Position numbers and translations under genes: made by a program
Shown: positions 886-32,000 of the stretch, piece after piece
How the letters are laid out: every line of letters begins with the position of its first letter
How positions within the stretch are numbered: position 1 is the first letter of the stretch
Notes under the pieces: model-generated
What the model saw: only the letters and a program-made list of their open reading frames with translations
Database searches by the model: none
What the model was told of the DNA's origin: nothing
NCBI GenBank assembly: GCA_035390665.1
Contig: DAOOUC010000006.1
Span: forward strand, 17,688-49,687
DNA: 32,000 nucleotides
Direction: 5' to 3'
DNA from: an archaeon
Lineage (GTDB): Archaea; Iainarchaeota; Iainarchaeia; Iainarchaeales; CSSED10-239

Positions 886-889
886 TTAA

Positions 890-1078: not shown

Positions 1079-1150
1079 GGGCTCCTGGCTCAATGGTAGA
1101 GTACTTCCCTTGCACGGAAGGGGTTGCGAGTTCGAGTCTCGCGGAGTCCA
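1079..1150 (+). tRNA. tRNA-Ala (anticodon UGC)
   Basis: Acceptor GGGCTCC/GGAGTCC with G3:U70, anticodon arm CTTCC-CTTGCAC-GGAAG (TGC at 1111-1113), T arm GCGAG-TTCGAGT-CTCGC, discriminator A. Confidence 0.9.
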
Positions 1151-1151
1151 T

Positions 1152-7141: not shown

Positions 7142-7268
7142 CCCTCCTTAGCATAGCGGTTAGTGCGTCCGGCTGTAGACTAAAAGATTACACTCTTTTT
7201 TTGATTGTGGCAATCCACATCAAAAGGCAGTGACCGGAAGATCCCCAGTCCAAATCTGGGAGGAGGGA
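7142..7268 (+). tRNA. tRNA-Tyr (anticodon GUA) with a 54-nt intron at 37/38 (intron about 7179-7232)
   Basis: Acceptor CCCTCCT/AGGAGGG with the archaeal/eukaryal C1:G72 Tyr identity pair and A73. D arm GCAT-AGCGGTTA-GTGC. Anticodon stem TCCGG/CCGGA with loop CTGTAG|...|A (GTA at 7175-7177). T arm CCCAG-TCCAAAT-CTGGG. The splice sites sit in two 3-nt bulges (AG|A and TG|A) separated by the 4-bp helix CTGT/GCAG, which is a bulge-helix-bulge motif. Confidence 0.9.
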
Positions 7269-18600: not shown

Positions 18601-19197
18601 GTGAAATATATGAGTAATAAAAACAATATAAAAAAAGAAAACAAATTTAAAATTAATAAAAAACAAGTGTTTTTTGTTGTTCTAATATTGTTATTAATGA
18701 TTTCTGTTTTTGCAATAGTAATCTCTAATAAATCAAAAGTTGTTACACCTACAGAAAATTTAGAAATGAATAATCAAATAATTACTGGAGAAAGCGATAT
18801 TACAGAAACACCAGAAATTAAAACAAACACAATTGGAGTGGATTCAAAACTAGAAGACTTCTATGGTAAACCTTCATTAATTGTTTTTGCAGGCACTTAT
18901 TGTGGACATTGTGTAAAGATGATTCCAGAACTTGAAAAAGAAATATGGAATAGATATAGACTAGAAGCAAATATTTGGGTAAATGTTATTGACGGTTCAA
19001 CAGGTAAAAGATTCGATGTTAAAGATATTGCACAAGGATATAATCCTAATTTAGAATATGATAAGATAATGGGCGATTGTTCTTATGTTCCAGCTTATGT
19101 TGTTCTTGATAAAGATGGCAAACAAATCTTAAGATCCTGTGGTTCTGAAAAAACAATTACAGAAATAAAGCAAGCAATTGATAGTCAATTAAACTAA
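18601..19197 (+). CDS. Membrane-anchored thioredoxin-fold thiol-disulfide oxidoreductase (TlpA/ResA-like)
   Basis: An N-terminal TM, then a thioredoxin-like domain with FAGTYCGHCVKM (CxxC). GTG at 18601 or ATG at 18610 as start. Confidence 0.7.
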   Translation: MKYMSNKNNIKKENKFKINKKQVFFVVLILLLMISVFAIVISNKSKVVTPTENLEMNNQIITGESDITETPEIKTNTIGVDSKLEDFYGKPSLIVFAGTYCGHCVKMIPELEKEIWNRYRLEANIWVNVIDGSTGKRFDVKDIAQGYNPNLEYDKIMGDCSYVPAYVVLDKDGKQILRSCGSEKTITEIKQAIDSQLN

Positions 19198-19581: not shown

Positions 19582-21057
19582 TTATTGACTATCCCCTTCT
19601 TCTCTTAAAAGTGGGAAGAGTATTACTTCTCTTATGTTTGGAGAATTGGTAAATATCATTACAAGCCTGTCTATTCCAAGACCAAGACCATAGGCTGGTG
19701 GCATACCATATTTTAAAGACTCAATAAAGTCTGTGTCTATTGGATGATTCTCTCCTTTTCCTCTTCCTTGGTCTGCTTGATCAATCATTAATGTTTCTTG
19801 AAGCATTGGATCGTTTAGTTCACTATAAATGTTTCCAGCCTCCATACCATTAACATATGGTTCATCTCTTTCTATTAGACTTGAGTCTTCTCTATGAAGC
19901 TTACATAAAGGAGTGGTTTCTTTAGGATGATCAATAATGTGAACAGGACCTAAAAGATGTTCCTCACAATAATGCTCGAAAAGCTCAGCAATGGCAAGAC
20001 CTCTCTTATAGGTTTCTAATTCTAATCTGTTCTTTGTGAGAAGATTCTTCAACTCATCATCACTTAATTTATCAACATCTACTCCGCCAAGCTCTTTTAA
20101 AGCATCTTTCATGGTTAATTTCTTCCAAGGTCTTTTAAAATCAAAAGTTTTTCCTTGATACTCTATAACGGTAGTACCATAAAGTCTTAAAGCCACAGTT
20201 TCATAGATTTCTTCAATCAAATCTATTGCAGAATTATAATCCTTATAACACTCATAACACTCAAGCATTGTAAACTCAGGATTATGAGATTTATCTATTC
20301 CTTCATTTCTGAAATTTTTACAAATTGTATAAACCTTATCAAAACCACCAACTAAAAGACGCTTTAAATAAAGTTCAGGAGAAATTGAAAGATAAAGATT
20401 TCTTTTCCATACAAAGCTTTCAGTAATGAATGGTCTAGCATTAGCACCACCATAAAGTGGTTGAAGTAAAGGAGTCTCAACTTCTAAAAACCCTCTTTTA
20501 TCTAATATTTCTCTAATTATCTTAATAATCTTAGCTCTTTTCATAAAGATTTCTCTTGATTCAAGACTTGTCATTAAATCAAGATATCTTTGTCTATATT
20601 TTAATTCAGCATCTTGAATACCGTGGAATTTTTCAGGAAGTGGTAAGAAAGCCTTAGATAGGAAAACAATATCTTTTGCATCAATTGAAAGCTCTCCTCT
20701 TTTTGTTTTAAAGACCTTTCCAGAAACTCCGATAATATCTCCAGTATCAAGTTTTCCAAATAGGTCAAAACTTTCTTTAGAAATTCCTTCTTCTTTTACA
20801 ACAATTTGAATCTTTCCGTAAGTATCATGTAAATCAATAAAAGCAATTTTGCCAAGAGACCTTAAAGAAAGAATTCTTCCAGCAACTGACGCTGTGTCTT
20901 CTGTTAAGGTATCTAATGGTAATTCTTTGTATTTTTCTTTAATGTCAATTGAATTGTGAGTTTTATTAAAAGTGTAAGGATAAGCAGTAATACCCATTTC
21001 AACTACACTATTAAAATTATTTTTTCTATTTTCTTGATATTCTTCTAATCTTCCCAT
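19582..21057 (-). CDS. lysS: Lysyl-tRNA synthetase, class II
   Basis: An OB-fold anticodon-binding N-domain (VAGRILSLRSLGKIAFIDL.D..GKIQ). Class II motif 2 (FRNEGID..HNPEFTMLE) and motif 3 (GLGLGIDRLVM). Confidence 0.9.
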   Translation of the reverse strand: MGRLEEYQENRKNNFNSVVEMGITAYPYTFNKTHNSIDIKEKYKELPLDTLTEDTASVAGRILSLRSLGKIAFIDLHDTYGKIQIVVKEEGISKESFDLFGKLDTGDIIGVSGKVFKTKRGELSIDAKDIVFLSKAFLPLPEKFHGIQDAELKYRQRYLDLMTSLESREIFMKRAKIIKIIREILDKRGFLEVETPLLQPLYGGANARPFITESFVWKRNLYLSISPELYLKRLLVGGFDKVYTICKNFRNEGIDKSHNPEFTMLECYECYKDYNSAIDLIEEIYETVALRLYGTTVIEYQGKTFDFKRPWKKLTMKDALKELGGVDVDKLSDDELKNLLTKNRLELETYKRGLAIAELFEHYCEEHLLGPVHIIDHPKETTPLCKLHREDSSLIERDEPYVNGMEAGNIYSELNDPMLQETLMIDQADQGRGKGENHPIDTDFIESLKYGMPPAYGLGLGIDRLVMIFTNSPNIREVILFPLLREEGDSQ

Positions 21058-21109: not shown

Positions 21110-24100
21110 TTATTTTTTCTTAGAATAGATTAACATAAATCCAATTAATATTATGCTTATATACATTACAAACAGTATTTTATTTTCAGGAGTTAAAGGC
21201 ACATTTAGACCATTTCCACTAGCCCCGCCACTTCCTGAGCCTATATTAAATACATTGTTTCCAGGATTTCCTGTAACTTGCCCGTTTGGATTAACAGCAA
21301 AAGTTACCCCATCTTTAAATTGATCATTAAATGGAATTAAATTACCATTTGTTGTATACCAATTACCTGTTTCTGGATCATACCAAAAAGACCCGTTCTT
21401 TCCTTGAGCAGAAAGTAAGGTTTCTTTTTCTCCATTGTAAGTAACCTTTGGAACTCCCTCTTCAGCACTAAATCCAAATTCATGTGTTTTTCCATCATCA
21501 GTTTTAACAATTAAACCATTTGGTGTTTGTTGAACAGAGGTTATTTTTGTATCTGTTACTTCTCCTGTTACTTTATCAATAATCTTTAATCTTTGTTCAC
21601 ATTCTGGTGGGTCACTTACATAGAAAATAAATGTTTTTGTTTCAGTATCAAACATTTTAAATGGTCCGACTTTTTCAAATGCTTTGTTTAGTTTATCAGT
21701 ATTTGCTTTTGCTTGATCATTGTCTTTCTCAGGAGATACATTAAATTTTAATCCTATTTCTTCAGTATCATCACAACCATTTGTTGCTTTTTCTTTAATT
21801 AATTCTGTTTTTAATTTTTCAATGTCATTTCCATGTGTTGCCGTTGTTGTTTCTACCCACATGATATATGCCTTTCTTTCTTCAACATAAACTAATTGTC
21901 CTCTTTCAAATTGCAAAGCAACATTTTGTCCAATAGTTATTTCTCTAGTATCTACTGGACTAATAGATGTCATTCTATTTCCTAAAATTACTGCTTTAGC
22001 ATTACTTCCGTTAGTTATATATCTTGGTATTCCTTCGGCCATTATCTGTGTTCCTTGAGGTTTTAACATATAGTTTGTTGCAGGATGAATTGTATTCCCT
22101 AATTTTACAGCACCTAAATATTCTGTTAGATTTGCTGCATTAGATGGTATTGTAAGTCCTGTCTGTGCTTCATAACCTGCTCTTAGACAATCAAAGAAGT
22201 CTGCATTTTTTACAGACAGATTACCAAAGGTATCAATTTCAAATAATGGTTCTGTATTATTTGGAACAGGAATATAACTTAAACTTCTTGGAACAACTTT
22301 AGCAGGAATTGCAAGATTTGTTCCTATAATTCTCACAAAATCTTTATTTTCTTGTCCAATAATTGTTTTTAAATTTCCATTTGCATCAACTACAGTCATT
22401 TCTCCTTTTTCTTTATCGATTGTAAGAGTTATATTTGTGTCTTTATCTACTAGATTTTCAACACCTTTGTCATTATAACCAATAGCATTACACTTGGTTC
22501 TTGGACCCATCTCAAAGAAAAACATTTGTCCTATTATTGTGGAATCTGTTTGTCCACTTGTTCTATATGTTGCTTGAACAATAGGGTTTTCTTTTAGTTT
22601 TTGTTCTGCAAAATCCTTTATTTGTTCTGCACCAAACTTTACTCCTTTTTCTAATTCTGTACCTTCTGTTACTTTAGATACAGCTTCTTCAACTTTTGTG
22701 ACTCCGTCTTTTACTGCTTCACCAACTTTATTTTTTGAATCTTTTGTAACTCTTTCTGATTCTACAGACGAAACAAAGAAGTGTGCATATGTTCCTTCTT
22801 CGTCATCAACACAATTATGTAATTCAGGCATAATTAAAAACATTTGAGGAACATCACTTGCAAGTGCTGGTGCTAAAAATGAACTAAAATATCCTGATGC
22901 TGGAAATACTAAGTATGCTAAATGTTGTTGAGTAACTAAAGCACCCGCAAATCTATGATTTCTCATTGATTTAGGAACTGCTTTACCAATGGACATACCT
23001 GCTAAAGTTAATGATTCTATTTTTTGAGAACAAGTTTCTTCATTTTCTCTTGCAGCTAAAAGGTTAATTGCTTTATCTGTTGTTTGATTAGAAAAGGTTC
23101 CATCATAATCTGTATGATGTGAAAAAGTAATAATTGTTTGCCCTTGCTTCTTATAATTCTCTTCAGAAGTATTTTCTAAAATATAATTCAAAGTGTTAAT
23201 GCTTGGTGGAGTAGATGTTGTTATAGTTATTTGATTTAAAGAAATACTTGGTCGATAATTTTCTGTTTTTTTAGTTTCTGGAACAGTTGTTTCTTCTTTT
23301 GCTGTTTCTGCTTCTTTTGAAGTGCCATCCTCTGTAGTTTCTTCTTTTATTGTTTCTATAGGTGTTTCTTCTGTAACAATTGTTGGAAGCTCTGGCGAAT
23401 TTTCAACTTCTTTTTCTGCATCTGTTTTTTCTGGTTCAATCATTCCAACTTCCATTAACATAGAAGCATTTCTTGTTTCTTGATTAATATATTCTGCACC
23501 TACAACATAATTACATTGATCAATACATGCATTATCTAGATTATTAGTTACAAGAACAATATCGTCTGTTTTAGATCTTCTAATTTGGCCTTCAGTTACT
23601 TTCTTTAAAACATTATTTAAAGACTGTGCCCAATCTGCTGTAATTGTCCCTGTAATTTCTTTTGCTAAGTAATTAGACCAGTTAAGTCCTGAATTTAAAA
23701 ATTGCATAAAAAGATCTCCTTGATCTGATCCTTCATTTGCAAAGAAATCAACATACGCATCTTCATAAATTTTTTGAGTAGCTCCGTGTTTGATATGGAA
23801 AGCAGAATAACTTTCAGGTAATTGATACATAGAATATTTGGTTAATCCAAACGTATCTCCAAATAATGTTGCACCACCGGTTTTAAATTCCCAATATGCA
23901 AAATTAATTCCAAACGCCATTGGATTTTGAGTAAGTAATCTTTGATATGCAGCACCATTATATGTTCTCATAAACTGATTTAAAGTATCTCTTCCTCTTC
24001 CGCTCACCCATTCTTTATTACTCATTGTGGTAAAAACTTCATTGAAACTTTTTGCAGTATTATCAAACTTTGTTGGAACATTATCCATTACTTGTTTCAT

Positions 24101-26233
24101 TGTTTCAAGTGGATCTAAATCATAATATCCTTTACCATATACATCACTGATCTTTTTACCTGTTGCTTTATCAATATAATCATCAACAAATTGAGTTGTA
24201 GTTTTTGGATAAAAATCAATGTCTGTTGCAACACCAGTATATTTTGCTGGATCCCAATCAATTGATCTTATTTCTTTAAATGTTTTATCACTTACATCAA
24301 AATATCTTATATATCCATTTGGATAATTATCAACATAATTTTGTACATCAGATAATTTTACTTTCTTTACTACATTAGATGGATCTGGACCTTGAACAAC
24401 AGTTCTTATTCTTTTTGCAGAAATTGGGGTTCCATCAGCTAAAGTAACAGTAACATTTTGTGTTTGAAGACCTCCTGATCCTTTTATATCATAACCTGTT
24501 GCTGTTTTCTTATATCTAAAAGCATCAAAATCTTCTCCAAATGGTTTATTTTCTTGTATAAGTTTTCCTGTGGTGTGACCGTCTGTTGATTTATAAACAT
24601 TTAAGTTATCAAAATCACCATAAGTTCTTGCACTTACTACAGAAGAATCTTCATATCCGGATTTCCATTTAAATGTCTTAAATGTTGCAATATCATAAGA
24701 ATCTGCAAGTCTTGAAGCAGTATATGCTGCATCAGTATAGGCATCTAATTGTGCTTTTGTTAATTTCTTATATGCTTCAGTTATTGGCAATCCATCAGCA
24801 ACAACTTTATCAATAGTGTTCTTTGCTGCCAAAAAATCAGGAGTAATCATTTTAGATTTTAATAATGCATTAGCAGAATATACTCTGTCTCCAAAAATTT
24901 GAGCAACATCTGTTGCTGCTCTTCTTTGTGCTTTAGATAATTTATAACTATCATTAGCAATGCTTTTTAATGCAAAGCCAGAAGTCTCTCCCATACCTTT
25001 TTGAGTATTACCTAATAAATCTGTTGTGAATTCTTGTATATTATAATTCTGAATATCTCTTTTTGTTAGATTAGAAAGAGGTTCCATTTTCTGTGTAATA
25101 AATTTATCAACATCACTTTTTGCAAATCTTCCAGCATCTAATGATTTTTTTATTCTACCAAAAGGATCTTGAACAAACAACGCAGGATCTTTTGTTAAAG
25201 TATCTAAAAATCCACCCTCTTTAATTATTCCTTTCTTCTTTAAATAATCATAAGGTTTTGTTAATGTTTTTTTTATTGAAGGATGATTTGCAATTCTTGC
25301 CATTCCATTATAAATAAAAGGACTTGTTGCACTATAAACCATGTCTACAGAAAAATATTGATTAAACATCTTGTCAAATAAAGTATAGGTATTAATATAA
25401 CAGTTTTCTCCTCTACAAGTTGTTTGCATACTTACAGAAAAATTATTAGTTATTGTAGTGTTCTTTACTGCTTTATCTTTTGTAGCAGTCCATAATTCTG
25501 TATCTATTGCATTTTGATCATTTGATTCCATTGTACTTAAATATGTGTTTAGTTCAGTATTTGTAATATCAGAAAATGCACCTAAATTTTCAGTATATGA
25601 CTTATTTTCATCTTTATTACTATCAATATTAATTGTTTCTTTAATTGCTTGAATTGCATCTTTACCTACAACTCCAACTTCTTTAAAAAATCCGGTAATG
25701 TCATTTTTTCTATATTGTCCAACATCTGTTAAATAACATTGACTATCATTATCTTTTCCAGTACATCTTCCCACTCTTAATGTATCTTTTAAATTTAAAC
25801 CCATTTCATAAGGGCCATAACAAGACTGTCCTAATATTGTTGGTGTTTCTAATGGATTCATTAATTTTGATGGAATTTCTTGCTTTATTGCAAGATCTCC
25901 TGCTTTTGCATTAGGATCTGTAAGAAGAATATTATTTTGATCTAGTGTTTGCCTATTATTATTTGCGGCTTGATCAGACGTTATTTCATCTGCAGAAAAA
26001 CCTTTAGTTAATATCTCTTTCCATAAAGCATTAACTGAACTTTCTGGAAGTTCAACAGTTGCACAACCATTTCCACGATCAAAAATTTCTTTTTGTTCTT
26101 GTGGTTGTGAATCTGCAAAATAAAGTGTATCAGAATTATTTAATCTATCAAAATCAACACCAGATGCAAATATACTATTGCAAAAAAGTATTAAAAAGAA
26201 AATCATTATTGCGTTTTTTGTTTTTGAATTCAT
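21110..26233 (-). CDS. Giant (1707 aa) secreted, C-terminally membrane-anchored surface protein of unknown family
   Basis: An uninterrupted 5.1-kb ORF. Sec-type signal peptide MNSKTKNAIMIFFLILFCNSIFA|SG. A C-terminal Gly/Ser/Asn-rich linker (GSGSGGASGNG), then TM ILFVMYISIILIGFMLIY and KKK. A central Glu/Thr/Pro-rich linker. Many N-x-S/T sequons. No catalytic or known adhesin motif recognised. Confidence 0.8.
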   Translation of the reverse strand: MNSKTKNAIMIFFLILFCNSIFASGVDFDRLNNSDTLYFADSQPQEQKEIFDRGNGCATVELPESSVNALWKEILTKGFSADEITSDQAANNNRQTLDQNNILLTDPNAKAGDLAIKQEIPSKLMNPLETPTILGQSCYGPYEMGLNLKDTLRVGRCTGKDNDSQCYLTDVGQYRKNDITGFFKEVGVVGKDAIQAIKETINIDSNKDENKSYTENLGAFSDITNTELNTYLSTMESNDQNAIDTELWTATKDKAVKNTTITNNFSVSMQTTCRGENCYINTYTLFDKMFNQYFSVDMVYSATSPFIYNGMARIANHPSIKKTLTKPYDYLKKKGIIKEGGFLDTLTKDPALFVQDPFGRIKKSLDAGRFAKSDVDKFITQKMEPLSNLTKRDIQNYNIQEFTTDLLGNTQKGMGETSGFALKSIANDSYKLSKAQRRAATDVAQIFGDRVYSANALLKSKMITPDFLAAKNTIDKVVADGLPITEAYKKLTKAQLDAYTDAAYTASRLADSYDIATFKTFKWKSGYEDSSVVSARTYGDFDNLNVYKSTDGHTTGKLIQENKPFGEDFDAFRYKKTATGYDIKGSGGLQTQNVTVTLADGTPISAKRIRTVVQGPDPSNVVKKVKLSDVQNYVDNYPNGYIRYFDVSDKTFKEIRSIDWDPAKYTGVATDIDFYPKTTTQFVDDYIDKATGKKISDVYGKGYYDLDPLETMKQVMDNVPTKFDNTAKSFNEVFTTMSNKEWVSGRGRDTLNQFMRTYNGAAYQRLLTQNPMAFGINFAYWEFKTGGATLFGDTFGLTKYSMYQLPESYSAFHIKHGATQKIYEDAYVDFFANEGSDQGDLFMQFLNSGLNWSNYLAKEITGTITADWAQSLNNVLKKVTEGQIRRSKTDDIVLVTNNLDNACIDQCNYVVGAEYINQETRNASMLMEVGMIEPEKTDAEKEVENSPELPTIVTEETPIETIKEETTEDGTSKEAETAKEETTVPETKKTENYRPSISLNQITITTSTPPSINTLNYILENTSEENYKKQGQTIITFSHHTDYDGTFSNQTTDKAINLLAARENEETCSQKIESLTLAGMSIGKAVPKSMRNHRFAGALVTQQHLAYLVFPASGYFSSFLAPALASDVPQMFLIMPELHNCVDDEEGTYAHFFVSSVESERVTKDSKNKVGEAVKDGVTKVEEAVSKVTEGTELEKGVKFGAEQIKDFAEQKLKENPIVQATYRTSGQTDSTIIGQMFFFEMGPRTKCNAIGYNDKGVENLVDKDTNITLTIDKEKGEMTVVDANGNLKTIIGQENKDFVRIIGTNLAIPAKVVPRSLSYIPVPNNTEPLFEIDTFGNLSVKNADFFDCLRAGYEAQTGLTIPSNAANLTEYLGAVKLGNTIHPATNYMLKPQGTQIMAEGIPRYITNGSNAKAVILGNRMTSISPVDTREITIGQNVALQFERGQLVYVEERKAYIMWVETTTATHGNDIEKLKTELIKEKATNGCDDTEEIGLKFNVSPEKDNDQAKANTDKLNKAFEKVGPFKMFDTETKTFIFYVSDPPECEQRLKIIDKVTGEVTDTKITSVQQTPNGLIVKTDDGKTHEFGFSAEEGVPKVTYNGEKETLLSAQGKNGSFWYDPETGNWYTTNGNLIPFNDQFKDGVTFAVNPNGQVTGNPGNNVFNIGSGSGGASGNGLNVPLTPENKILFVMYISIILIGFMLIYSKKK

Positions 26234-26244
26234 TTATTTCACTT

Positions 26245-26769
26245 TTACATATATATTAAATATAAAATTATAACAGGTAATTTGGGGAAAACAAGTAATA
26301 CAAATGCAATTATTACAAATAAAACAAATGTAAAACTTTTCCAAAGATTAAAGAAAGACAATCCTTGTTCTTTTTTCTTTTTTATTTTTGTTTTCTTGGA
26401 TTTAGTTAAATTATCATAAATCAAAGAAATGAACATTCCTATAATTAAGACTATTGCAGAGAATAATGCAGAAATAATAATTAATCTAGCTAAATGGAAT
26501 AAAATAAAACCAATAGCATCTAAAAATGTAAATTCTGAAAATTTACTTAATATTGGGATAAAATATAAAAATATTAAAATAACATAATTTAGGATAAAAA
26601 CACACAAAAACAAGGACAATACAAAATTATATTTTTTATTAAACCTTAAAAATAAACCCTTAAAAGCATAAGTTACGCCAATAAATGGCAAAGAGATTAT
26701 TGCTGAAAATAAAAATAATTTAATAAAAACCCAAACATAATTTAATATTGTTGCAAAAAATCCTGCCAT
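26245..26769 (-). CDS. Polytopic membrane protein, co-oriented 11 nt upstream of the giant surface-protein gene
   Basis: 174 aa with about 5 TM segments and a KSKKTKIKKKKEQG loop. The 11-nt gap to the next start implies co-transcription. Confidence 0.6.
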   Translation of the reverse strand: MAGFFATILNYVWVFIKLFLFSAIISLPFIGVTYAFKGLFLRFNKKYNFVLSLFLCVFILNYVILIFLYFIPILSKFSEFTFLDAIGFILFHLARLIIISALFSAIVLIIGMFISLIYDNLTKSKKTKIKKKKEQGLSFFNLWKSFTFVLFVIIAFVLLVFPKLPVIILYLIYM

Positions 26770-26863
26770 TTTATCACTTTTTAATTCTAAAATATAATAT
26801 ATATATTAACATTATATTTTTAAATATTATATACTACTACATTTATGTAAGAAAGTGAAAAAT

Positions 26864-27574
26864 ATGGACGTAGATTTAAAAAATATCAAAAGAAGAGAAC
26901 GAAGATTCTATAGAACCTATAATGATAATGGGGAAATTAAATATGTTGATAAACAAACAAAAACCCCAGAATCAGTAACTGTACAAAAATCAGAAGATAT
27001 TAAAATTAAACAAACAGAAGAAAAGAGTAAGGAAATTAATACTCAAGACAAAAAAGAAATAATAGATAAGATACTTTTCGAAATGAATAAAAGCATAAAT
27101 CCTAATATTGATGAAATTTCGGAAGTCATTTATTCTCAATTAACTAATAATAATATTGAGGTTAGTCAAGAAACAGTAAAACATGTAGTTGAAGAAAATG
27201 CTCATGTGAGAAGATCAAGAAGACAAGAAGACAAGGCCGAATCAAAAGAAGGTTTTGATTATTTAAATGATAGAAAAGAAATGGAACTTGTTTTAGATAA
27301 TATTGTAGAAGAAAATATAAAAGAACAAACAAGAGAAAAAAATAAACCTAAAATTGAAAAACCTGTTATTGAGAAAAAAACAGAAACTCATTCTAGAAGA
27401 GATAAAAAACCTGAAGAAAAAACAAAAGTTGAAGAGAAACCTGAAAAGAAAAAAGAAGATACTTCTAAAACAAAAACCAAAGTCAAAAAAGAAGAAGAAT
27501 TTAAATTAGATTTTGGAGATGAAGATTCTGAAGTAGATGATCAATCAGATGACGATTTAGGACTTAAATTTTAA
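26864..27574 (+). CDS. Highly charged Lys/Glu-rich protein with an acidic C-terminal tail
   Basis: ATG at 26864 (the ORF track extends to GTG 26855). No TM segment. Low-complexity KPEEKTKVEEKPEKKKED, ending in DEDSEVDDQSDDDLGLKF. Its stop overlaps the stop of the convergent gene within TTAA (27571-27574). Confidence 0.55.
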   Translation: MDVDLKNIKRRERRFYRTYNDNGEIKYVDKQTKTPESVTVQKSEDIKIKQTEEKSKEINTQDKKEIIDKILFEMNKSINPNIDEISEVIYSQLTNNNIEVSQETVKHVVEENAHVRRSRRQEDKAESKEGFDYLNDRKEMELVLDNIVEENIKEQTREKNKPKIEKPVIEKKTETHSRRDKKPEEKTKVEEKPEKKKEDTSKTKTKVKKEEEFKLDFGDEDSEVDDQSDDDLGLKF

Positions 27575-28350
27575 TTAGTTACTTCTTCACAATTTAATAA
27601 ATCTAAATCATCTGGATTTATATCTGTTGTTGCTGGCCAGATTGCAAATGTTGCAATTGTTAAAAATTCTCTTTGTTCTGAAGCAGAGGATGTATATTTT
27701 ATAAAACTTAAAGGAACAGATGAAGAAAAAATTGTCGGAGATTTAGAAATTATTGATCTAACTTGTGAATATCCACCTTCTGGATCACAAAGATAATAAG
27801 TTTCTGGTTCATATGGATTTACAGAACAACTCATTGTTTTTGTCGGACCAGAAATACTTGTACATTGAAAATTTGTTAACTTAATCATAAAATAAAAAAA
27901 AGTATCATTATTCTGTGTTTGATCATAAAGATAAAATACATAATCGTGAGACTTTAAAGGATACATTGTTGCTTTCACTGTGTGGAATAAATTATATTTA
28001 GCAATATCATTATAGGTTGTTCCTAAAGTATTTATGTCTGTTGATCCAATTTTTCCATCAGCATAAAAATCCTGTTTTATTTGAGTCATTAAATAATCCG
28101 TTTCTCTTGCTTGACGAATATCTAAATTAAAATCTAAAGGAACAGATGTATAAAAGATTGTTCTTAATACTGAGTTTGTGTAATCTTTAAAATAAAGATC
28201 ATTTGATGCTTTTTCAATTCTTGTTCCGTATGTTGATGAATATCTAAATAACAATACAGATAAAGTTACAATTATTAATAAGAAAAATAAAGCATCTGTA
28301 ATTGCGGCTTGGCCTTTTTTACTTTTTAATTTATTTCCAAATTGTAACAT
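27571..28350 (-). CDS. Pilin-like secreted protein with class III signal peptide (259 aa)
   Basis: N-terminus MLQFGNKLKSKKG|QAAITDALFFLLIIVTLSVLLF: a basic leader, KG then Q, and a hydrophobic helix. Cys-containing globular domain. The start overlaps the upstream gene by 20 nt. Confidence 0.7.
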   Translation of the reverse strand: MLQFGNKLKSKKGQAAITDALFFLLIIVTLSVLLFRYSSTYGTRIEKASNDLYFKDYTNSVLRTIFYTSVPLDFNLDIRQARETDYLMTQIKQDFYADGKIGSTDINTLGTTYNDIAKYNLFHTVKATMYPLKSHDYVFYLYDQTQNNDTFFYFMIKLTNFQCTSISGPTKTMSCSVNPYEPETYYLCDPEGGYSQVRSIISKSPTIFSSSVPLSFIKYTSSASEQREFLTIATFAIWPATTDINPDDLDLLNCEEVTN

Positions 28351-28834
28351 ATAACCACGCTGGCTCTACATAATATTCTTGTTGAACTGTAATAGGATAT
28401 CTATAAACAATAACTTCTTTTGTCATTAATACTGATGTTAAAGTATCAATATCTGTATTTCCACAGAAGAAAACCTTATCTGGACTTTCCCAATGTATTA
28501 TTAATGCATCTTCTGTAATGTCATTTACCTCAAAAACGTCATAATTTTCGGTGTTTAAATCTAAGGGCAAAGCAAAAGCTGTCCAATTGTATTTTGTATC
28601 CACTTTTGTACAGGTTTTAGAAAATGCATTATAGTCTGAAAATAATGGATCTTCTTTTATTATTCCAGAAATATTTATTGCATCATTTTTTAAAGAATAA
28701 TAATCTGTATTATTTCTATAAACATTATATGTACTTAAAAATACAGAAAAAAATATAGTTATACCTAAAAATATTGGAATTAAACTAGGGAGATCATCTC
28801 CTATTGCTCCTATATATCCTTTTTTATTTAACAT
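28331..28834 (-). CDS. Pilin-like protein (167 aa), divergent class III signal peptide
   Basis: MLNKKG|YIGAIGDDLPSLIPIFLGITIFFSVFL. In an operon with the flanking pilin-like genes. Confidence 0.55.
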   Translation of the reverse strand: MLNKKGYIGAIGDDLPSLIPIFLGITIFFSVFLSTYNVYRNNTDYYSLKNDAINISGIIKEDPLFSDYNAFSKTCTKVDTKYNWTAFALPLDLNTENYDVFEVNDITEDALIIHWESPDKVFFCGNTDIDTLTSVLMTKEVIVYRYPITVQQEYYVEPAWLYVTIWK

Positions 28835-28838
28835 ATTA

Positions 28839-29528
28839 TCAACTTATGGGTATAGTGTTTGGCTCTACAAACAAATCAGGAATTGCATTTAGACAAAGTA
28901 TTTTTTGTTTTAAATCTTCTTCGACTAAGAAATTCTTACATTGATAAATTCCATTTTTCTTTAAACATGGAATTAAATAAATATTGGGAATTCCATTTTC
29001 TATTTTTTTAATAAATAAAATAGTTGTATCAATTGAACTTGCTTTTAATGGATCATAATTTACAGAAAAATTGGTATCATTTAATTTTATTTCACAACCG
29101 GTATTATTTGTACAATCAGATTCATAAAAATAAACATTTCCATTATAATCTATATCATAAGCAGCATAAATTTTTGGTTTGTATGATTTTCTATCAATTA
29201 TTGCTAACACTATTTTTTTTTGTTCGCTTCCTATGTCTGTATTAGTAGTAAAATTATGAGCTGAAACATTTAATTTATAATTTATACTAAATGCATCTGA
29301 TCCACCTGAGTTAGTATAAATCTTTTTAGGAATATCAATAAATTTTACTGTACAATAGCTATTACTTTCTATTCCAACTTTTAATTCTTTCCCGATTTTA
29401 TAAACTAATTCATAGCTTTGTCTTATTTTCATATTTGAATTTACTGCGCCCATAAAGAAAACAACAATTGCTGCAACAGCAGTAACAAAAATTAAAAGAT
29501 TTAATTTAGATAGAGCAAATTCAATCAT
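28839..29528 (-). CDS. N-terminally anchored Cys-rich extracellular protein (229 aa), pilin-operon member
   Basis: MIEFALSKLNLLIFVTAVAAIVVFFMGAV has a hydrophobic helix but no KG leader. Six or more Cys in the globular part. It lies 2 nt from the upstream gene. Confidence 0.55.
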   Translation of the reverse strand: MIEFALSKLNLLIFVTAVAAIVVFFMGAVNSNMKIRQSYELVYKIGKELKVGIESNSYCTVKFIDIPKKIYTNSGGSDAFSINYKLNVSAHNFTTNTDIGSEQKKIVLAIIDRKSYKPKIYAAYDIDYNGNVYFYESDCTNNTGCEIKLNDTNFSVNYDPLKASSIDTTILFIKKIENGIPNIYLIPCLKKNGIYQCKNFLVEEDLKQKILCLNAIPDLFVEPNTIPIS

Positions 29529-29530
29529 AA

Positions 29531-30130
29531 TTATATCCTATTTTTCTTTAAAAAACACATTTTACGGGACGCACCATAATCTTGTGAAGATCCAATCATA
29601 TATAATCTGTATTTTCCAGAAGTTATATTTGTTGAGATATTTGTGTCTGAAACTAAAGACCAATTTTCATATTCTGAATCTGTACTTATTATACAATTAT
29701 CTTTATATGTTTCATACTCTATGGCTGTTGGTAATTCAACACACAATGGTTGTATTGGCATATTTCTAGTTTTGCCATCATCATAAACATATTCTAGAAG
29801 AGTACATGTTTGTCCACCACCACAAAAAGCAGCACATCTTGTTGGACTTGCATATGTTTTAAGTGTTATTTTTTCAAACTTTTGATTAAAGCAAGGTCTT
29901 ACATCAAAACTAAGATTTTTTACTGTTAAATCAGAACCTAAAACTACATCTTTGATTGCTTCTTTAAACTCACTTAGTTCTTGTCTTTTATCTCCGATAC
30001 AAGTATTTTCAGAAAGATTAGTTAAAGCCCAAGTTCCTGCAACAATAACAAAACCCATAAGTATAACAGCGACTAAAACTTCAAAAGGAGCACTAGCTTG
30101 GCCTTTATTATTCATGCTAAATATATTCAT
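29531..30130 (-). CDS. Pilin-like secreted protein with class III signal peptide (199 aa), Cys-rich
   Basis: MNIFSMNNKG|QASAPFEVLVAVILMGFVIVAG. About 10 Cys (NTCIG, RPCF, TRCAAFCGGGQTC, PLCVE, NCII, KMCF). Confidence 0.7.
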   Translation of the reverse strand: MNIFSMNNKGQASAPFEVLVAVILMGFVIVAGTWALTNLSENTCIGDKRQELSEFKEAIKDVVLGSDLTVKNLSFDVRPCFNQKFEKITLKTYASPTRCAAFCGGGQTCTLLEYVYDDGKTRNMPIQPLCVELPTAIEYETYKDNCIISTDSEYENWSLVSDTNISTNITSGKYRLYMIGSSQDYGASRKMCFLKKNRI

Positions 30131-30175
30131 ATTAGAAGAAATAATAGAAAAAGAATTTAAAAAGGAATTGTTTTT

Positions 30176-30418
30176 TTATTGTGTAGAAGTTGTTGGAGTA
30201 TTTGCTACCGTATTATTATTTGTAGCAACTCCTTGATTAGGAAGACTAGCAACATTTTGTTGATACTTCATAGACTTGTTAAACATAGGTTTAATTAAAG
30301 CAATAAGGACTATGCCCACTATTGCAACAATAATAAGCATATATAGAGTAGAAGCCCCATCTGCTTGAGCCCTATTATCCCTTAAAAGTTTTTTAAACTC
30401 TTGCTTTAATTTATTCAT
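30176..30418 (-). CDS. Small pilin-like protein (80 aa), candidate major fibre subunit
   Basis: A basic leader ...LLRDNRA|QADGASTLYMLIIVAIVGIVLIALI, then a short Asn/Thr-rich tail (ATNNNTVANTPTTSTQ). The size and layout resemble small archaeal major pilins (UPF0333/MMP1685-like). Tentative. Confidence 0.5.
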   Translation of the reverse strand: MNKLKQEFKKLLRDNRAQADGASTLYMLIIVAIVGIVLIALIKPMFNKSMKYQQNVASLPNQGVATNNNTVANTPTTSTQ

Positions 30419-30430
30419 AGTTTTTCAAAT

Positions 30431-30976
30431 TTATGCTGATTTTTTTGCATAGATTAAACATAATGTTTCGTCTGTTATCTCTGATTTAGATGAAATGTCT
30501 ATATTACTAATTCTTTGATATGAATTATTTGAAGCATATGTTTCTTTTATAGTTTCTAATCCAGAATATCCTTCTTCAGAACAAACAATACAAACAGCAA
30601 TTCTTTTATCAGATGCGCCTGTATATGTAAGTATTGAATTACCTATTACTTGAAAATTCTCTACATTATCATATTCATTGCTTACTAATACCTGATATTG
30701 ACTTAAACCCGTATTCTTGACCATTGCTTCTGCACCAATAGATGTAGATCTTTTGAATTTGATTGCATCTGTACAATTAATTACACCTGGATAATTTAAT
30801 TGATTTTTTAATAAATTATTAGTTACTTGATCTGGTTTATCTGTACCAATATCTAATCCACCAATAACAGATATTAAAACTCCAAGTATTGCTAAAGCAA
30901 CAATTGCAGCAATTAATAACTGAAATGTTGAGGATGCTTGTCCTTTCTTATTTAATTTAAACATTTTTCTTTTCAC
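30431..30976 (-). CDS. Pilin-like secreted protein with class III signal peptide (181 aa), 4-Cys domain; paralog of 31045..31890
   Basis: MKRKMFKLNKKG|QASSTFQLLIAAIVALAILGVLISV. Its C-terminal domain shares NYPGV.NCTD, FKR, KNTGL, YTG, VCI.CS and ETLCL.Y.KK with the next gene. Confidence 0.75.
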   Translation of the reverse strand: MKRKMFKLNKKGQASSTFQLLIAAIVALAILGVLISVIGGLDIGTDKPDQVTNNLLKNQLNYPGVINCTDAIKFKRSTSIGAEAMVKNTGLSQYQVLVSNEYDNVENFQVIGNSILTYTGASDKRIAVCIVCSEEGYSGLETIKETYASNNSYQRISNIDISSKSEITDETLCLIYAKKSA

Positions 30977-31044
30977 CTTTTCTATTTTTTATAAATATTA
31001 TATATAACAAAAATATATTACCATAATATATTTAAAGCTTATCT

Positions 31045-31890
31045 TTATGCTTTCTTTGGATAAACTAAACACAAGGTTTCTCGTTCTATATTTGAATCAA
31101 TAACCGTAGTTATTCCATATTCCTCCATTGCTTGCTGTAATCCGGTTTTTCCATTATCTGAACAAATAATACATACTTCCACATTCTTGTTTGAAGATCC
31201 CGTATATTTTAATATTTGTGAATTGGTTGATTCAAATCCTATCAAATTATCTAGATTATTTAAATATACTTGTGTGTTATCCAGCCCAGTATTTTTAATA
31301 ATGCTTTCTGCTATTAGAGAACTATTTCTTTTAAAAGTTACTTTGTCTGTACAATTTTCTACACCTGGATAATTAATTTGTTGTCTTAATAATTGTGCAG
31401 TATATACTGTCGGATTTTGACTACGTCTACTTGGTGCAGGCAATTGAGCTGAAATAATAAATAAAAGTAATAAACATGCTGTAATTATTAAAGATAAATT
31501 TACTTTGTGTTTATATACTCTTACTGATTTATTTTCTAACTTTTGTTCTAAGTCTTTATTGAATAAAGCAATAAATTCATAAATTACAGAAATAAATAGA
31601 ATTACTATAGCAAATAAAATACATATGCTTCCAAGATAAAAAACAAAAGGAACTAAATCATTTAATCCATTTGGAATATTAATTCCAAGAATCAATATAA
31701 TAAGAAATAATATTGGTAGACTTGCCATTATTAAAATTCCAATTATAATTTTAGTATTATATTTGTTATACTCTTCTTGAGATTCTTTAGGATCTTCTTT
31801 TTCTTCAGTTTTAGATATATTATTTTGTTTTTCAATAACAGAATCTAAATATTCTTCATCTTCTTTTTTTTGATCCTTCATTTTTTTCAC
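31045..31890 (-). CDS. Membrane-anchored paralog of the 4-Cys pilin domain (281 aa), with a charged N-terminus plus 3 TM instead of a class III signal peptide
   Basis: The C-terminal ~130 aa are homologous to 30431..30976 and include an identical 15-nt stretch (31360-31374 = 30782-30796, encoding NYPGV). The N-terminus has an acidic ~45 aa followed by three hydrophobic helices. Confidence 0.7.
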   Translation of the reverse strand: MKKMKDQKKEDEEYLDSVIEKQNNISKTEEKEDPKESQEEYNKYNTKIIIGILIMASLPILFLIILILGINIPNGLNDLVPFVFYLGSICILFAIVILFISVIYEFIALFNKDLEQKLENKSVRVYKHKVNLSLIITACLLLLFIISAQLPAPSRRSQNPTVYTAQLLRQQINYPGVENCTDKVTFKRNSSLIAESIIKNTGLDNTQVYLNNLDNLIGFESTNSQILKYTGSSNKNVEVCIICSDNGKTGLQQAMEEYGITTVIDSNIERETLCLVYPKKA

Positions 31891-31922
31891 ATTTTTAGTA
31901 TTTTGGATAAATCTTGTAAAAA

Positions 31923-32000
31923 CTAATATCCACCAATTATTAACAAAATTAAAATCACAAAGATAATTGAAAATATCAATTTAAACCAAATATTTGAAAT
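31923..32000 (-). CDS. 3' end of an upstream minus-strand gene (hydrophobic C-terminus; rest outside the window)
   Basis: The reverse strand reads ISNIWFKLIFSIIFVILILLIIGGY* in an open frame from the window edge to the stop at 31923-31925. It is co-oriented with the pilin operon, 32 nt upstream of it. Confidence 0.35.
   Translation of the reverse strand: MSNIWFKLIFSIIFVILILLIIGGY

What the first reader, a model, noticed from the sequence alone, without database searches (positions are those of the whole stretch)
21110..32000. An 11-kb cell-envelope island (pilin-like operon, polytopic membrane protein, 1707-aa surface protein): candidate uncharacterised attachment apparatus
Ten of the eleven genes in this span are on the minus strand, and all ten encode secreted or membrane proteins. 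They comprise a partial hydrophobic protein at the window edge, seven tightly packed pilin-like or N-terminally anchored Cys-rich proteins, a 5-TM protein, and a giant Sec-secreted, C-terminally anchored protein. None carries a motif I can assign to a known family beyond the class III signal peptide. If the organism is a small-genome DPANN-type archaeon, as the RNA-gene signatures suggest, such a concentrated investment in surface structures would fit machinery for contact with a host or partner cell. That link is inference, not something the sequence shows.
Basis: partly seen in the sequence, partly recalled or inferred. Interest (0 to 1): 0.8.

Follow-up and report, generated by a model that had tools for sequence, protein, structure and literature searches.

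The report
Pilus gene cluster with giant surface protein
This stretch is the far end of a type IV pilus-like gene cluster, conserved in 205 genomes of a group of tiny archaea (Diapherotrites), that pairs seven unannotated pilin-like genes with a 1707-residue surface protein carrying a sortase-type tail signal; it is a new variant of a known kind of machine, and no role in attachment has been shown.

Summary
Window 21110-32000 holds ten minus-strand envelope genes and one plus-strand gene, and none matches Pfam or NCBIfam.

The region is not an orphan island. It is the distal part of a gene cluster found in 205 Diapherotrites/Iainarchaeum genomes. The order is fixed: TadC/FlaJ-type platform (T2SSF), then P166, P181, P80, P199, P229, P167, P259, a small polytopic protein, and a ~1500-1700-aa protein.

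In most of these genomes the cluster starts with a FlaI/TadA-like ATPase, adjacent in 45 of 50. An archaeosortase-family gene with invariant Cys/Arg/His lies in 32 of 40.

Five of the seven small window proteins carry [KR]-[GA]-Q/F class III signals. The giant protein has a Sec signal. Its conserved C-terminus, (I/L)P(L/S)xPE + TM helix + K/R tail, looks like an archaeosortase target.

The window belongs to a low-GC subclade that includes Ca. Forterrea. There the platform gene is kept, just beyond the window end by synteny, but the ATPase and sortase are not adjacent (0 of 8). A shorter FlaI-like ATPase lies elsewhere.

Verdict: a type IV filament locus, a new variant of a known kind. Attachment or host contact remains inference. 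No prepilin peptidase was found.

The parts
31926..32000 (-). 3' end of a gene cut by the window edge. The 25 residues seen end in a C-terminal hydrophobic helix. Its identity is unknown and it has no counterpart at this position in L005.
31045..31890 (-). P281: three TM helices followed by a Cys-containing extracellular domain paralogous to that of P181. It has no cleavable class III leader. The family is confined to the window's subclade and varies in copy number (1-3 extra copies in L005, L011, L012, L023).
30431..30976 (-). P181: pilin-like protein with leader MKRKMFKLNKKG|QASSTFQLLIAAIVALAILGVL. The family consensus is KGQafStFkLLIAAvVA (62 sequences). It is the first gene of the conserved pilin block.
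30176..30418 (-). P80: small pilin-like protein with leader ...RDNRA|QADGASTLYMLIIVAIVGIVLIALIKPMF and an S/T/N-rich tail. I take it as the candidate major subunit, which is inference.
29531..30130 (-). P199: pilin-like protein, MNIFSMNNKG|QASAPFEVLVAVILMGFVIVAG, with 8 Cys. Family consensus kgQesAPFElLvAvI.
28839..29528 (-). P229: N-terminally anchored protein with no leader (MIEFALSKLNLLIFVTAVAAIVVFF) and 6 Cys. The N-terminus is conserved as Ml.F.LSKlNlLIfVtA in 46 sequences.
28331..28834 (-). P167: pilin-like protein with the strongly conserved N-terminus KG|[FY]IG.IGDDLPSLIP (44 sequences).
27571..28350 (-). P259: pilin-like protein, ...KSKKG|QAAITDALFFLLIIVTLSVLLF. Family consensus kGQAAiTDAlfFLlIv (41 sequences). 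It is the last gene of the pilin block.
26855..27574 (+). KE239: opposite-strand gene for a soluble K/E-rich protein with a conserved RRERRFYR near the N-terminus and DDLGLKF at the C-terminus. It occurs at this position only in the window's subclade (10 of 10, against 0 of 30 elsewhere). Its function is unknown and it may not belong to the machine.
26245..26769 (-). M5TM: small polytopic membrane protein (4-5 TM helices). It lies directly upstream of the giant gene in 30 of 34 giant genes examined. No family match and no conserved catalytic-looking residues.
21110..26233 (-). GIANT: 1707-aa surface protein conserved at full length. An exhaustive search found 182 representatives, all large proteins matching at their C-terminus. 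It has 15 Cys and 19 NxS/T sequons, with conserved blocks at 1-350, 770-910 and 1010-1690.
26165..26233 (-). Sec-type signal peptide of GIANT (MNSKTKNAIMIFFLILFCNSIFA|SG). The cleavage site was read by eye.
21113..21208 (-). C-terminal tripartite signal of GIANT: NVPLTPE (P1679 and P1682 nearly invariant) + TM helix + KKK. This is the predicted archaeosortase recognition and cleavage region.

Best explanation
Window 21110-32000 is the distal two-thirds of a type IV filament (archaeal type IV pilus / Tad-like) gene cluster that is a conserved feature of the DPANN class Iainarchaeia (Diapherotrites).

How it most likely works:
1. Five of the small proteins (P181, P80, P199, P167, P259) are made as prepilins with a short basic leader ending in [KR]-[GA]. 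A prepilin peptidase that was not found in the locus cuts them in front of Gln or an aromatic residue.
2. A TadC/FlaJ-type platform protein, driven by a FlaI/TadA-type ATPase, extracts them from the membrane and stacks them into a filament. The platform gene heads the cluster, just beyond position 32000 by synteny.
3. The small P80 is probably the bulk subunit. The larger, mostly Cys-containing proteins, kept one-to-one and in fixed order, probably form a priming or tip complex, like bacterial minor pilins.
4. The 1707-aa protein is exported by Sec and held by its C-terminal helix. An archaeosortase-family enzyme then probably cleaves it at the conserved (I/L)P(L/S)xPE motif and re-anchors it. 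This makes it the exposed adhesin-like or S-layer-like partner of the filament. The small polytopic protein encoded directly upstream is its dedicated helper.

Shown: gene content, order and conservation; T2SSF and T2SSE identity of the upstream genes in relatives; the class III-type N-termini; the tripartite C-terminus; and the catalytic triad of the co-located sortase.

Inferred: cleavage events, filament formation, subunit roles, any physical link between the giant protein and the filament, and any role in adhesion or host contact.

In the window's low-GC subclade the ATPase and sortase genes have left the locus. A 400-470-aa FlaI-like ATPase encoded elsewhere is the likely motor.
For: Synteny:
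- The closest relatives L005 (81% DNA identity) and L006 keep the window's gene order and add T2SSF-like, P166 and a 4-TM gene upstream.
- A scan of one genome per species found 205 genomes with the platform gene. In the 80 loci fetched, the order P166 > P181 > P80 > P199 > P229 > P167 > P259 > M5TM > GIANT recurs. The full pilin block is present in 22 of 30 loci outside the subclade and 9 of 10 within it, where coverage allows.
- M5TM is directly upstream of GIANT in 30 of 34 cases. The pair stays beside T2SSF-P166 even where the pilin block has moved (L038, L039, L052, L069, L089).

Platform: 25 of 34 family members hit PF00482 T2SSF, best E = 2.7e-6. NCBI names some of them 'type II secretion system F family protein'.

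ATPase: it scores 65 bits on PF00437, and its best NCBIfam match is FlaI. Outside the subclade it is adjacent to T2SSF in 45 of 50 genomes and within a few kb in the other 5.

Pilin signals: the family consensus N-termini are KGQ..., RAQ... and KGF.... In the window these signals occur only in this block.

Sortase link:
- An archaeosortase-family gene (TIGR04178, 42 bits against a cut-off of 23) lies in 32 of 40 loci outside the subclade. In the independent metagenome contigs where a neighbour is visible it again sits next to the ATPase, although 16 of the 47 contigs that contain the sortase gene show no neighbour.
- Cys, Arg and His are invariant in 37 sequences.
- All complete GIANT homologues end in the motif + TM + basic tail. 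In about 1.3 Mb of loci, no other ORF of 100 aa or more fits that pattern.

Motor in the subclade: a FlaI-like ATPase is found near the locus in L015 and L017, alone on a 664-kb low-GC contig (L090), and on a 26.5%-GC contig of the same assembly that holds a 98%-identical copy of the window.

Precedent: archaeal type IV pilus loci with PilY-like or S-layer-like large proteins are described in PMC4858521, and DPANN 'dark matter' pilin islands in PMC6393860.
Against: - No pilin-like protein matches any Pfam pilin or class III signal model. This holds for 123 family members and for the isolated N-termini.
- No prepilin peptidase was seen in the window or in any locus.
- In the window's subclade neither the ATPase nor the sortase is in the locus (0 of 8 each), and I could not show a sortase anywhere in that subclade.
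- P229 and P281 lack a cleavable leader.
- The giant protein's fold gave no support for an adhesin. The C-half model has mean pLDDT 69 and only weak beta-propeller-like Foldseek hits with TM-scores below 0.15. The N-half model has pLDDT 57 and no hits.
- The fixed one-to-one conservation of seven subunits fits a short pseudopilus as well as it fits a long pilus.
- The C-terminal pattern used was derived from the giant proteins themselves, so its specificity is partly circular.
Confidence: 0.6

Rival explanations
1. The machine is an envelope-assembly device rather than a pilus. The seven pilin-like proteins form a short pseudopilus or membrane-proximal scaffold, as in type II secretion or the Sulfolobus bindosome assembly system. 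Its job would be to mount the giant protein, which would be the cell's S-layer-like wall protein processed by the archaeosortase, as ArtA processes the Haloferax S-layer glycoprotein.
For: - Orthology is strictly one-to-one and the order of the seven subunits is fixed across the class. They are about as conserved as the giant protein, unlike fast-evolving adhesive pilins.
- The giant protein is present in essentially every locus and has a Sec signal, 19 sequons, conserved Cys and a sortase-type tail.
- The ATPase also scores against the BasE model (76 bits).
- The S-layer glycoprotein is the main ArtA substrate (PMC6098224).
- S-layer-like proteins with a C-terminal TM helix occur in other archaeal type IV pilus loci (PMC4858521).
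Against: - There is no similarity to any S-layer or Bas protein.
- P80 looks like a small polymerising subunit.
- The BasE score is far below its cut-off of 1000 bits.
- Nothing shows that the giant protein is abundant or forms a lattice.
Confidence: 0.25
2. In the window's subclade the locus is a decaying remnant. The ATPase and sortase were lost, and the remaining genes no longer build anything.
For: The ATPase is adjacent in 0 of 8 subclade loci and the sortase is in the locus in 0 of 8, against 45 of 50 and 32 of 40 elsewhere. No orphan sortase from a low-GC contig was found.
Against: - All genes are intact and full length.
- Identity between subclade species is 64-79%, with no frameshifts in the window or L005. 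One 98%-identical contig, L002, does carry short or split P181 and P167 ORFs.
- The sortase motif prolines remain nearly invariant within the subclade.
- The platform gene is retained at 58-78% identity.
- A FlaI-like ATPase exists in the subclade.
- The subclade has gained genes in the locus (M4TM, KE239, P281 paralogues).
Confidence: 0.07
3. The genes are unrelated envelope genes that happen to be neighbours. The giant protein and the pilin block have independent functions.
For: An opposite-strand gene separates the two transcription units in the window. No physical interaction has been shown.
Against: The neighbourhood persists across genomes ranging from 22% to 54% GC and through local inversions. 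The sortase that should act on the giant protein sits next to the pilus ATPase.
Confidence: 0.06
4. The cluster encodes an archaellum, a swimming organelle.
For: The best NCBIfam match of both ATPases is FlaI.
Against: The FlaI scores (138 and 214 bits) are far below the 550-bit cut-off. No archaellin, FlaF, FlaG or FlaH family matched among the window proteins or the pilin-like and membrane-protein family members that were scanned.
Confidence: 0.02

Closest known systems
DPANN 'dark matter' type IV pilus islands (Makarova, Wolf & Koonin 2019, PMC6393860, Fig. 2A) and the 'type-IV pili present' calls for Diapherotrites genomes (PMC8561730)
   Same: Both have an ATPase (which the paper calls FliI) plus TadC flanked by signal-peptide proteins with no detectable similarity to known pilins. 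The organisms are the same kind: L046 is the AR10 genome and L071 the LFW-281_4 genome cited in PMC8561730.
   Different: Those reports give no family-level description. The fixed seven-gene pilin block, the M5TM-GIANT pair, the sortase-type tail and the co-located archaeosortase are not mentioned in the text I could search.
Methanococcus maripaludis Epd pili (EppA-processed pilins; locus model in PMC4858521)
   Same: Both have several pilin-like genes with a KGQ-type class III cleavage site (Gln at +1; recalled from the Epd/EppA literature, not tested here). Both have a FlaI-family ATPase with TadC-type platform, and a large surface protein encoded in the locus.
   Different: There is no sequence similarity. 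This cluster has one platform gene instead of two. The large Epd proteins carry DUF2341 (PilY-like), whereas GIANT has no known domain, a Sec signal and a C-terminal sorting signal. The Epd locus has no archaeosortase.
Thermoproteales type IV pilus loci with an S-layer-like protein (arCOG05471; PMC4858521)
   Same: Both have a large secreted protein with a single C-terminal TM helix and conserved cysteines, encoded inside a type IV pilus locus next to diverse small predicted minor pilins.
   Different: The phylum differs and no homology was detected. No sortase-type motif or sortase gene is reported there.
Haloferax volcanii ArtA and its PGF-CTERM substrates, including the S-layer glycoprotein (PMC6098224)
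   Same: The substrate has a tripartite C-terminus (short motif, TM helix, basic tail). The enzyme is of the exosortase/archaeosortase family with conserved Cys/Arg/His.
   Different: The motif here is (I/L)P(L/S)xPE, not PGF. The enzyme is about 180 aa and reaches only the general family signature, not ArtA-H or any Xrt model. There appears to be a single dedicated substrate, and the gene sits in a pilus locus. PMC6098224 describes archaeosortases only for a subset of Euryarchaeota.
Bacterial minor-pilin/PilY1 operon (fimU-pilVWXY1E) and type II secretion pseudopilins GspH-K
   Same: A block of several low-abundance pilin-like genes is kept in fixed order. In the PilY1 case it is followed by a large Sec-exported protein that associates with them.
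   Different: This is analogy only. There is no homology, PilY1 has no C-terminal membrane anchor, and the weak beta-propeller-like fold hits for GIANT are not reliable.
Bacterial Tad/Flp pilus
   Same: Both have a TadA/FlaI-like ATPase, a T2SSF platform and a very small pilin with little more than a hydrophobic helix. One P80-family member hit Flp_Fap weakly at E = 0.0095.
   Different: P80 lacks the G|xxxxEY Flp motif. There is no secretin or other Tad component, and the lineage is archaeal.

Membership tests
Archaeal type IV pilin (class III signal peptide protein) | Short basic leader ending in [KR]-[GA], followed at once by a hydrophobic helix of about 20 residues | tested here: met
   Met for P181, P80, P199, P167 and P259, both in the window and in the family consensus. 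Not met for P229 (no leader) or P281 (three TM helices, no leader).
Archaeal type IV pilin (class III signal peptide protein) | Match to a curated pilin or class III signal model (Pfam Class_IIIsignal/DUF361, Pilin_N and similar) | tested here: not met
   No such hit for the window proteins, for 123 family members or for the isolated N-terminal peptides. There was a single weak Flp_Fap hit at E = 0.0095.
Archaeal type IV pilin (class III signal peptide protein) | Encoded with a T2SSE ATPase and a T2SSF platform protein | tested here: met
   The platform gene heads the cluster in all relatives, and the ATPase is adjacent in 45 of 50 genomes outside the subclade. Within the window itself neither gene is present, and in the window's subclade the ATPase is elsewhere.
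Archaeal type IV pilin (class III signal peptide protein) | Leader removed by a PibD/FlaK/EppA-type prepilin peptidase present in the genome | not tested
   No A24-type peptidase was seen in the window or the fetched loci. Whole genomes could not be scanned with these tools.
T2SSF / TadC / FlaJ platform protein (gene upstream of the window in relatives) | Match to PF00482 in a polytopic protein | tested here: met
   25 of 34 members hit at E <= 0.01, best 2.7e-6. Some pass NCBI naming. The members closest to the window (P0051, L006) do not hit on their own but are full-length homologues at 43-48% identity.
Archaeosortase substrate | C-terminal tripartite signal: short conserved motif, TM helix, basic cluster | tested here: met
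   NVPLTPE + 19-residue helix + KKK in the window. The signal is conserved in 30 of 31 close homologues (P0008 is truncated) and in distant ones.
Archaeosortase substrate | One of the described motifs (PGF, PEF, VPXXXP ...) | tested here: not met
   The motif is (I/L)P(L/S)xPE. The enzyme reaches only the general TIGR04178 signature, not any named subfamily.
Archaeosortase substrate | Archaeosortase gene in the same genome | tested here: inconclusive
   Present in the locus in 32 of 40 genomes outside the subclade, with invariant Cys/Arg/His. Present in 0 of 8 subclade loci, and none was found for the subclade in the metagenome scan.
Archaeosortase substrate | C-terminal cleavage and re-anchoring | not testable with these tools
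   Needs mass spectrometry of the mature protein.
Archaellum | Archaellin, FlaF/G, FlaH and a FlaI equivalog | tested here: not met
   No archaellin, FlaF, FlaG or FlaH hits among the proteins scanned. FlaI model scores are 138 and 214 bits against a cut-off of 550.
PilY1-like tip adhesin | DUF2341 / vWA / C-terminal beta-propeller | tested here: inconclusive
   No Pfam domain. The C-half model gives only weak Kelch/WD40-type Foldseek hits, with E about 2e-4 and TM-scores of 0.15 or less.
S-layer protein | Abundant lattice-forming surface protein | not testable with these tools
   No sequence match to solved structures. Abundance and lattice formation need experiments.

The most novel reading that the evidence does not exclude
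The cluster is a hybrid of two surface-display systems that are not known to work together. A dedicated, previously unclassified archaeosortase encoded beside the pilus ATPase would cleave the giant protein at (I/L)P(L/S)xPE. It would then hand the protein not simply to a lipid but to the filament or its tip complex. The result would be a sortase-loaded type IV filament that presents a 1700-residue adhesin for cell-cell contact in DPANN archaea.
Probability: 0.12. Interest if true: 0.85.

Novelty: new variant of a known kind. Interest (0 to 1): 0.55.

Why it matters
DPANN archaea have tiny genomes full of unannotated genes, and how they touch surfaces or other cells is largely unknown.

This work turns eleven 'hypothetical' genes into a defined, class-wide module. 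The module has named parts: platform, ATPase, seven ordered pilin-like families, a polytopic helper, a giant surface protein and a dedicated archaeosortase.

It gives about ten new protein families that could be modelled and annotated across at least 205 genomes.

It extends archaeosortase-type sorting to DPANN and links it genetically to a type IV filament, which is a testable idea.

It also shows a natural variant, the Forterrea-like subclade, in which motor and sortase genes have left the locus. That variant is useful for working out which parts depend on which.

Tried and rejected
- Extending the window's own contig failed. The longest identical contig (L003) ends at window position 31927, and the others end earlier.
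- Pfam and NCBIfam on all window proteins found nothing.
- Pfam on 123 pilin-like members found nothing consistent.
- Pfam on 68 membrane and K/E-rich members found nothing consistent, only single chance-level hits such as one Presenilin hit at E = 0.006.
- Pfam on isolated N-terminal peptides found nothing relevant.
- Pfam on seven distant giant-protein relatives found nothing.
- PDB sequence searches with the platform protein and with the giant-protein profile found nothing.
- Structure prediction of the giant protein in two halves was only partly informative:
  - C-half: pLDDT 69, with residues about 1320-1630 confident and beta-rich. Foldseek against PDB and BFVD gave only weak propeller-type hits with TM-scores of 0.15 or less. 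I do not accept these as a fold assignment.
  - N-half: pLDDT 57. The conserved blocks were poorly predicted and there were no PDB hits.
- I considered M5TM, M4TM and the ~336-aa polytopic protein as hidden prepilin peptidases or sortases. I rejected this because they have no conserved Asp pair or GxGD motif and no Cys/Arg/His triad.
- I searched for an orphan archaeosortase of the window's subclade in metagenomes. The first alignment was too diverse. The second scan returned mostly canonical loci, and 16 of the 47 sortase-bearing contigs showed no neighbour. The few sortases with no neighbouring ATPase that I checked (L114, L117) belong to another lineage and sit beside different class III proteins.
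- An archaellum was rejected (see the rival explanations).
Full report
**The observation.**
- Ten lie on the minus strand, with gaps of -20 to +68 bases between them.
- Each of the six proteins between 27571 and 30976 has one N-terminal hydrophobic helix.
- The 281-aa protein has three TM helices, the 174-aa protein four or five, and the 1707-aa protein one at each end.
- The plus-strand gene (26855-27574) encodes a soluble protein that is 48% charged residues.
- None of the ten complete proteins reaches any Pfam or NCBIfam threshold.
- A simple class III signal rule picks four of the 36 non-nested ORFs of the window. All four lie in 28331-30976. A fifth, the 259-aa protein, fits by eye.
- The window is archaeal and very AT-rich: 27% GC and a tRNA with an intron at 7142-7268.

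**Relatives and synteny.** Contigs 98-100% identical to the window exist in several metagenomes, but none extends past position 31927. The giant protein has full-length homologues down to 38% identity. Some are named Ca. Diapherotrites or Ca. Iainarchaeum.

Their contexts show the window's gene order exactly, including the lysyl-tRNA synthetase downstream. Upstream they add a ~740-aa polytopic protein, a further pilin-like gene (P166) and a 4-TM gene (L005 and L006).

That polytopic protein has 372 homologues. Of 34 sampled, 25 hit PF00482 (T2SSF), with best E = 2.7e-6, and NCBI names several of them T2SS F family proteins.

A more distant relative on a 1.19-Mb contig (L008) has a 764-aa T2SSE ATPase directly in front of the platform gene. 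It scores 65 bits on PF00437 and its best NCBIfam match is FlaI. The same series of small genes and a giant gene follow it.

**The class-wide picture.** A scan of one genome per species with the platform alignment found 205 genomes. I mapped gene families onto the 80 loci fetched with jackhmmer.

The recurrent order is: archaeosortase-family gene (divergent), an optional ~336-aa polytopic gene, ATPase, T2SSF, P166, P181, P80, P199, P229, P167, P259, M5TM, GIANT.

Counts where coverage allows:

| Feature | Outside the window's subclade | Window's subclade |
|---|---|---|
| ATPase directly adjacent to the platform gene | 45 of 50 (other 5 within a few kb) | 0 of 8 |
| Archaeosortase gene in the locus | 32 of 40 | 0 of 8 |
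| P166 follows the platform gene | 52 of 54 | 13 of 13 |
| Full pilin block present | 22 of 30 | 9 of 10 |

M5TM lies directly upstream of GIANT for 30 of 34 giant genes. Where the pilin block has been inverted or moved, M5TM-GIANT still stays beside T2SSF-P166 or beside the sortase (L038, L039, L052, L069, L089). The genomes range from 22% to 54% GC, so this is long-maintained linkage, not recent transfer.

**The pilin-like families.** Family alignments of 41-77 sequences give these conserved N-termini:
- KGQ.FE.FRLLI (P166)
- KGQAFSTFKLLIAAVVA (P181)
- RAQ.EWSS.YMLIV (P80)
- KGQESAPFELLVAVI (P199)
- KGFIGPIGDDLPSLIP (P167)
- KGQAAITDALFFLLIV (P259)

These have the layout of archaeal class III signals, with Gln or an aromatic residue at +1. 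From my own knowledge, Gln at +1 is the hallmark of the EppA-processed pilins of Methanococcus. P229 starts directly with its hydrophobic helix. P281 is a three-TM paralogue of the P181 globular domain.

Even so, no member of any family, and none of the isolated N-termini, matches a curated pilin or class III model. At the level of existing libraries these are new families. Between the window and L006 they are 37-54% identical, similar to the giant protein (40%) and well below LysRS (70%).

**The giant protein.** It has a Sec-type signal. Conserved blocks lie at 1-350, 770-910 and 1010-1690, with a variable helical middle and an acidic linker.

An exhaustive search of 1.84 billion representative proteins with its C-terminal half finds only 182 relatives. 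All are large proteins that match at their C-terminus. None of those tested has a Pfam domain.

Its C-terminus is the most telling feature. All complete homologues end in (I/L)P(L/S)xPE, a hydrophobic helix and a K/R cluster. This includes distant ones such as ...ALPSWPEQQPWAALMLALILLGVAAIRFRRD. The two prolines are nearly invariant, while the G/S-rich linker before them varies. In about 1.3 Mb of fetched loci, no other ORF of 100 aa or more fits the pattern, though the pattern was derived from these proteins.

This is the tripartite architecture of exosortase/archaeosortase substrates (PMC6098224). The co-located enzyme reaches the general exosortase/archaeosortase signature (TIGR04178, 42 bits against a cut-off of 23) but no named subfamily. 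It has invariant Cys (LCTG), Arg (NxxRI) and His (HDxLFR) in 37 sequences. An independent metagenome scan seeded with the sortase again finds it divergently adjacent to the ATPase and platform genes in the contigs where a neighbour is visible. Sixteen of the 47 contigs that contain the sortase gene show no neighbour. I therefore predict a dedicated sortase-substrate pair embedded in the pilus locus.

Structure prediction did not identify a fold:
- C-half: pLDDT 69, with a confident beta-rich region at about residues 1320-1630. It gave only weak propeller-type Foldseek hits with TM-scores of 0.15 or less.
- N-half: pLDDT 57 and no hits.

**The window's own subclade.** Loci whose platform protein is at least 58% identical to the L005 type all have 22-32% GC and include the complete genome of Ca. 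Forterrea multitransposorum (L021).

In this subclade the platform gene is preceded by unrelated opposite-strand genes (ferredoxin, AP endonuclease). The subclade has gained a 4-TM gene after P166, extra P281 paralogues and the opposite-strand K/E-rich gene. Neither the 760-aa ATPase nor the sortase lies within 10 kb.

A shorter FlaI-like ATPase (400-470 aa; 101 bits on PF00437) is present in this subclade:
- 2 kb upstream on the other strand in L015 and L017;
- alone on a 664-kb contig with 22% GC (L090);
- on a 26.5%-GC contig of the same assembly that carries a 98%-identical copy of the window.

An assembly ATPase therefore exists in the lineage, but the link to this particular genome is by assembly and composition only. 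I could not find a sortase for the subclade. The retained PxxPE motif argues that one exists, but that is inference. No prepilin peptidase was seen anywhere in the window or in the loci.

**Interpretation.** The best reading is a type IV filament system in which five or six prepilins are processed and polymerised on the TadC-like platform. The giant protein would be its sortase-processed surface partner, either an adhesin or an S-layer-like component.

The strict one-to-one conservation of seven subunits resembles minor-pilin or pseudopilin sets. A short envelope-spanning pseudopilus that mounts the giant protein is therefore a serious rival (0.25). Decay of the locus in the subclade, chance neighbourhood and an archaellum are unlikely, for the reasons given under the rival explanations.

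**Comparison with what is known.**
- Type IV pili are already listed for Diapherotrites genomes (PMC8561730).
- Makarova and colleagues noted that DPANN loci beside the ATPase (which they call FliI) and TadC are full of signal-peptide proteins without detectable similarity to known pilins (PMC6393860).
- Archaeal type IV pilus loci with PilY-like or S-layer-like large proteins are described (PMC4858521).

What I did not find in the searchable literature:
- the defined seven-family block;
- the M5TM-GIANT pair;
- the new C-terminal motif;
- an archaeosortase in DPANN;
- its linkage to a pilus ATPase.

PMC6098224 describes archaeosortases only for a subset of Euryarchaeota. I therefore rate this a new variant of a known kind, of moderate interest (0.55). 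The sortase link is a real, testable addition.

Noticed in passing
window 679-1151: Three tandem tRNA-Ala genes carry anticodons CGC, AGC and UGC, and none encodes a 3' CCA. I read the AGC anticodon directly in the sequence (cccTAGCAcgg). From my own knowledge, archaea usually carry GGC rather than AGC for Ala, so an A34 tRNA-Ala is unexpected.
   Followed up: partly
window 7142-7268: A tRNA match 127 nt long (Rfam, 48 bits) that ARAGORN did not call, consistent with an intron-containing archaeal tRNA.
   Followed up: no
window 2-613 (ORF open at the window start): The C-terminal part of a GLUG-motif protein. It is 44% identical over 126 residues to ~694-aa proteins in metagenome contigs L114 and L117. 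Those proteins begin with a Flp-like class III signal (SKGQGTIEYLVILGVI) and sit next to an orphan archaeosortase gene. This is possibly a second pilin-type adhesin family in the window's genome.
   Followed up: partly
window 18601-19197: A membrane-anchored thioredoxin/redoxin-like protein with a CGHC motif lies about 2 kb from the cluster. A similarly sized gene (191 aa, no Pfam annotation) sits at the corresponding position in L005 (17073-17648), but I did not test homology. It could be an extracytoplasmic disulfide oxidoreductase serving the Cys-containing pilin-like proteins.
   Followed up: no
window 3119-4258: A single 379-aa protein fuses a cytidylyltransferase-like (PPAT-type) domain with a bacterial-type dephospho-CoA kinase (CoaE) domain. 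This is an unusual arrangement for an archaeon.
   Followed up: no
window 19582-21057: A class II lysyl-tRNA synthetase lies directly downstream of the giant gene (52-base gap, same strand). The position is conserved in L005 and L006. It may be co-transcribed with the giant gene.
   Followed up: partly
window 26855-27574 and orthologues (e.g. L006:8682-9359): A K/E-rich soluble protein with conserved RRERRFYR near the N-terminus and a DDLGLKF C-terminus is encoded antisense between the pilin block and M5TM. It occurs only in the low-GC subclade. In L008 the same gap holds two unrelated opposite-strand genes, one with zinc ribbons, so this position seems to tolerate insertions.
   Followed up: partly
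L026, L032, L041, L046, L047, L059, L062, L063, L075, L087, L095, L102, L110 (ATPase ORFs of ~1260-1300 aa; 1815 aa in L086): In about a quarter of loci the pilus ATPase ORF is some 500 aa longer than the usual ~760 aa. This suggests an intein or an inserted domain. The normal 760-aa form has an N-terminal Cys/His cluster (CSQCPY...HCRFH) not seen in FlaI.
   Followed up: no
L005:3038-4393: A 451-aa secreted, Cys-rich protein with an HEVGH zinc-metalloprotease motif is inserted inside the pilin block of the closest relative. It is absent from the window.
   Followed up: no
L008:1-5287: Next to the archaeosortase gene in L008 lies a protein of more than 2797 aa with faint SpaA and weak CarboxypepD_reg Pfam hits. 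Its C-terminus is outside the fetched locus, so I could not check whether it too carries the sortase signal.
   Followed up: no
L015:6848-7132, L017:5216-5497, L090:11437-11727: A ~95-aa protein accompanies the short FlaI-like ATPase of the subclade in all three contexts. In L015 and L017 it shows a zinc-ribbon Cys motif (YKYCP.C...C..C); for L090 only the size and position are known.
   Followed up: no
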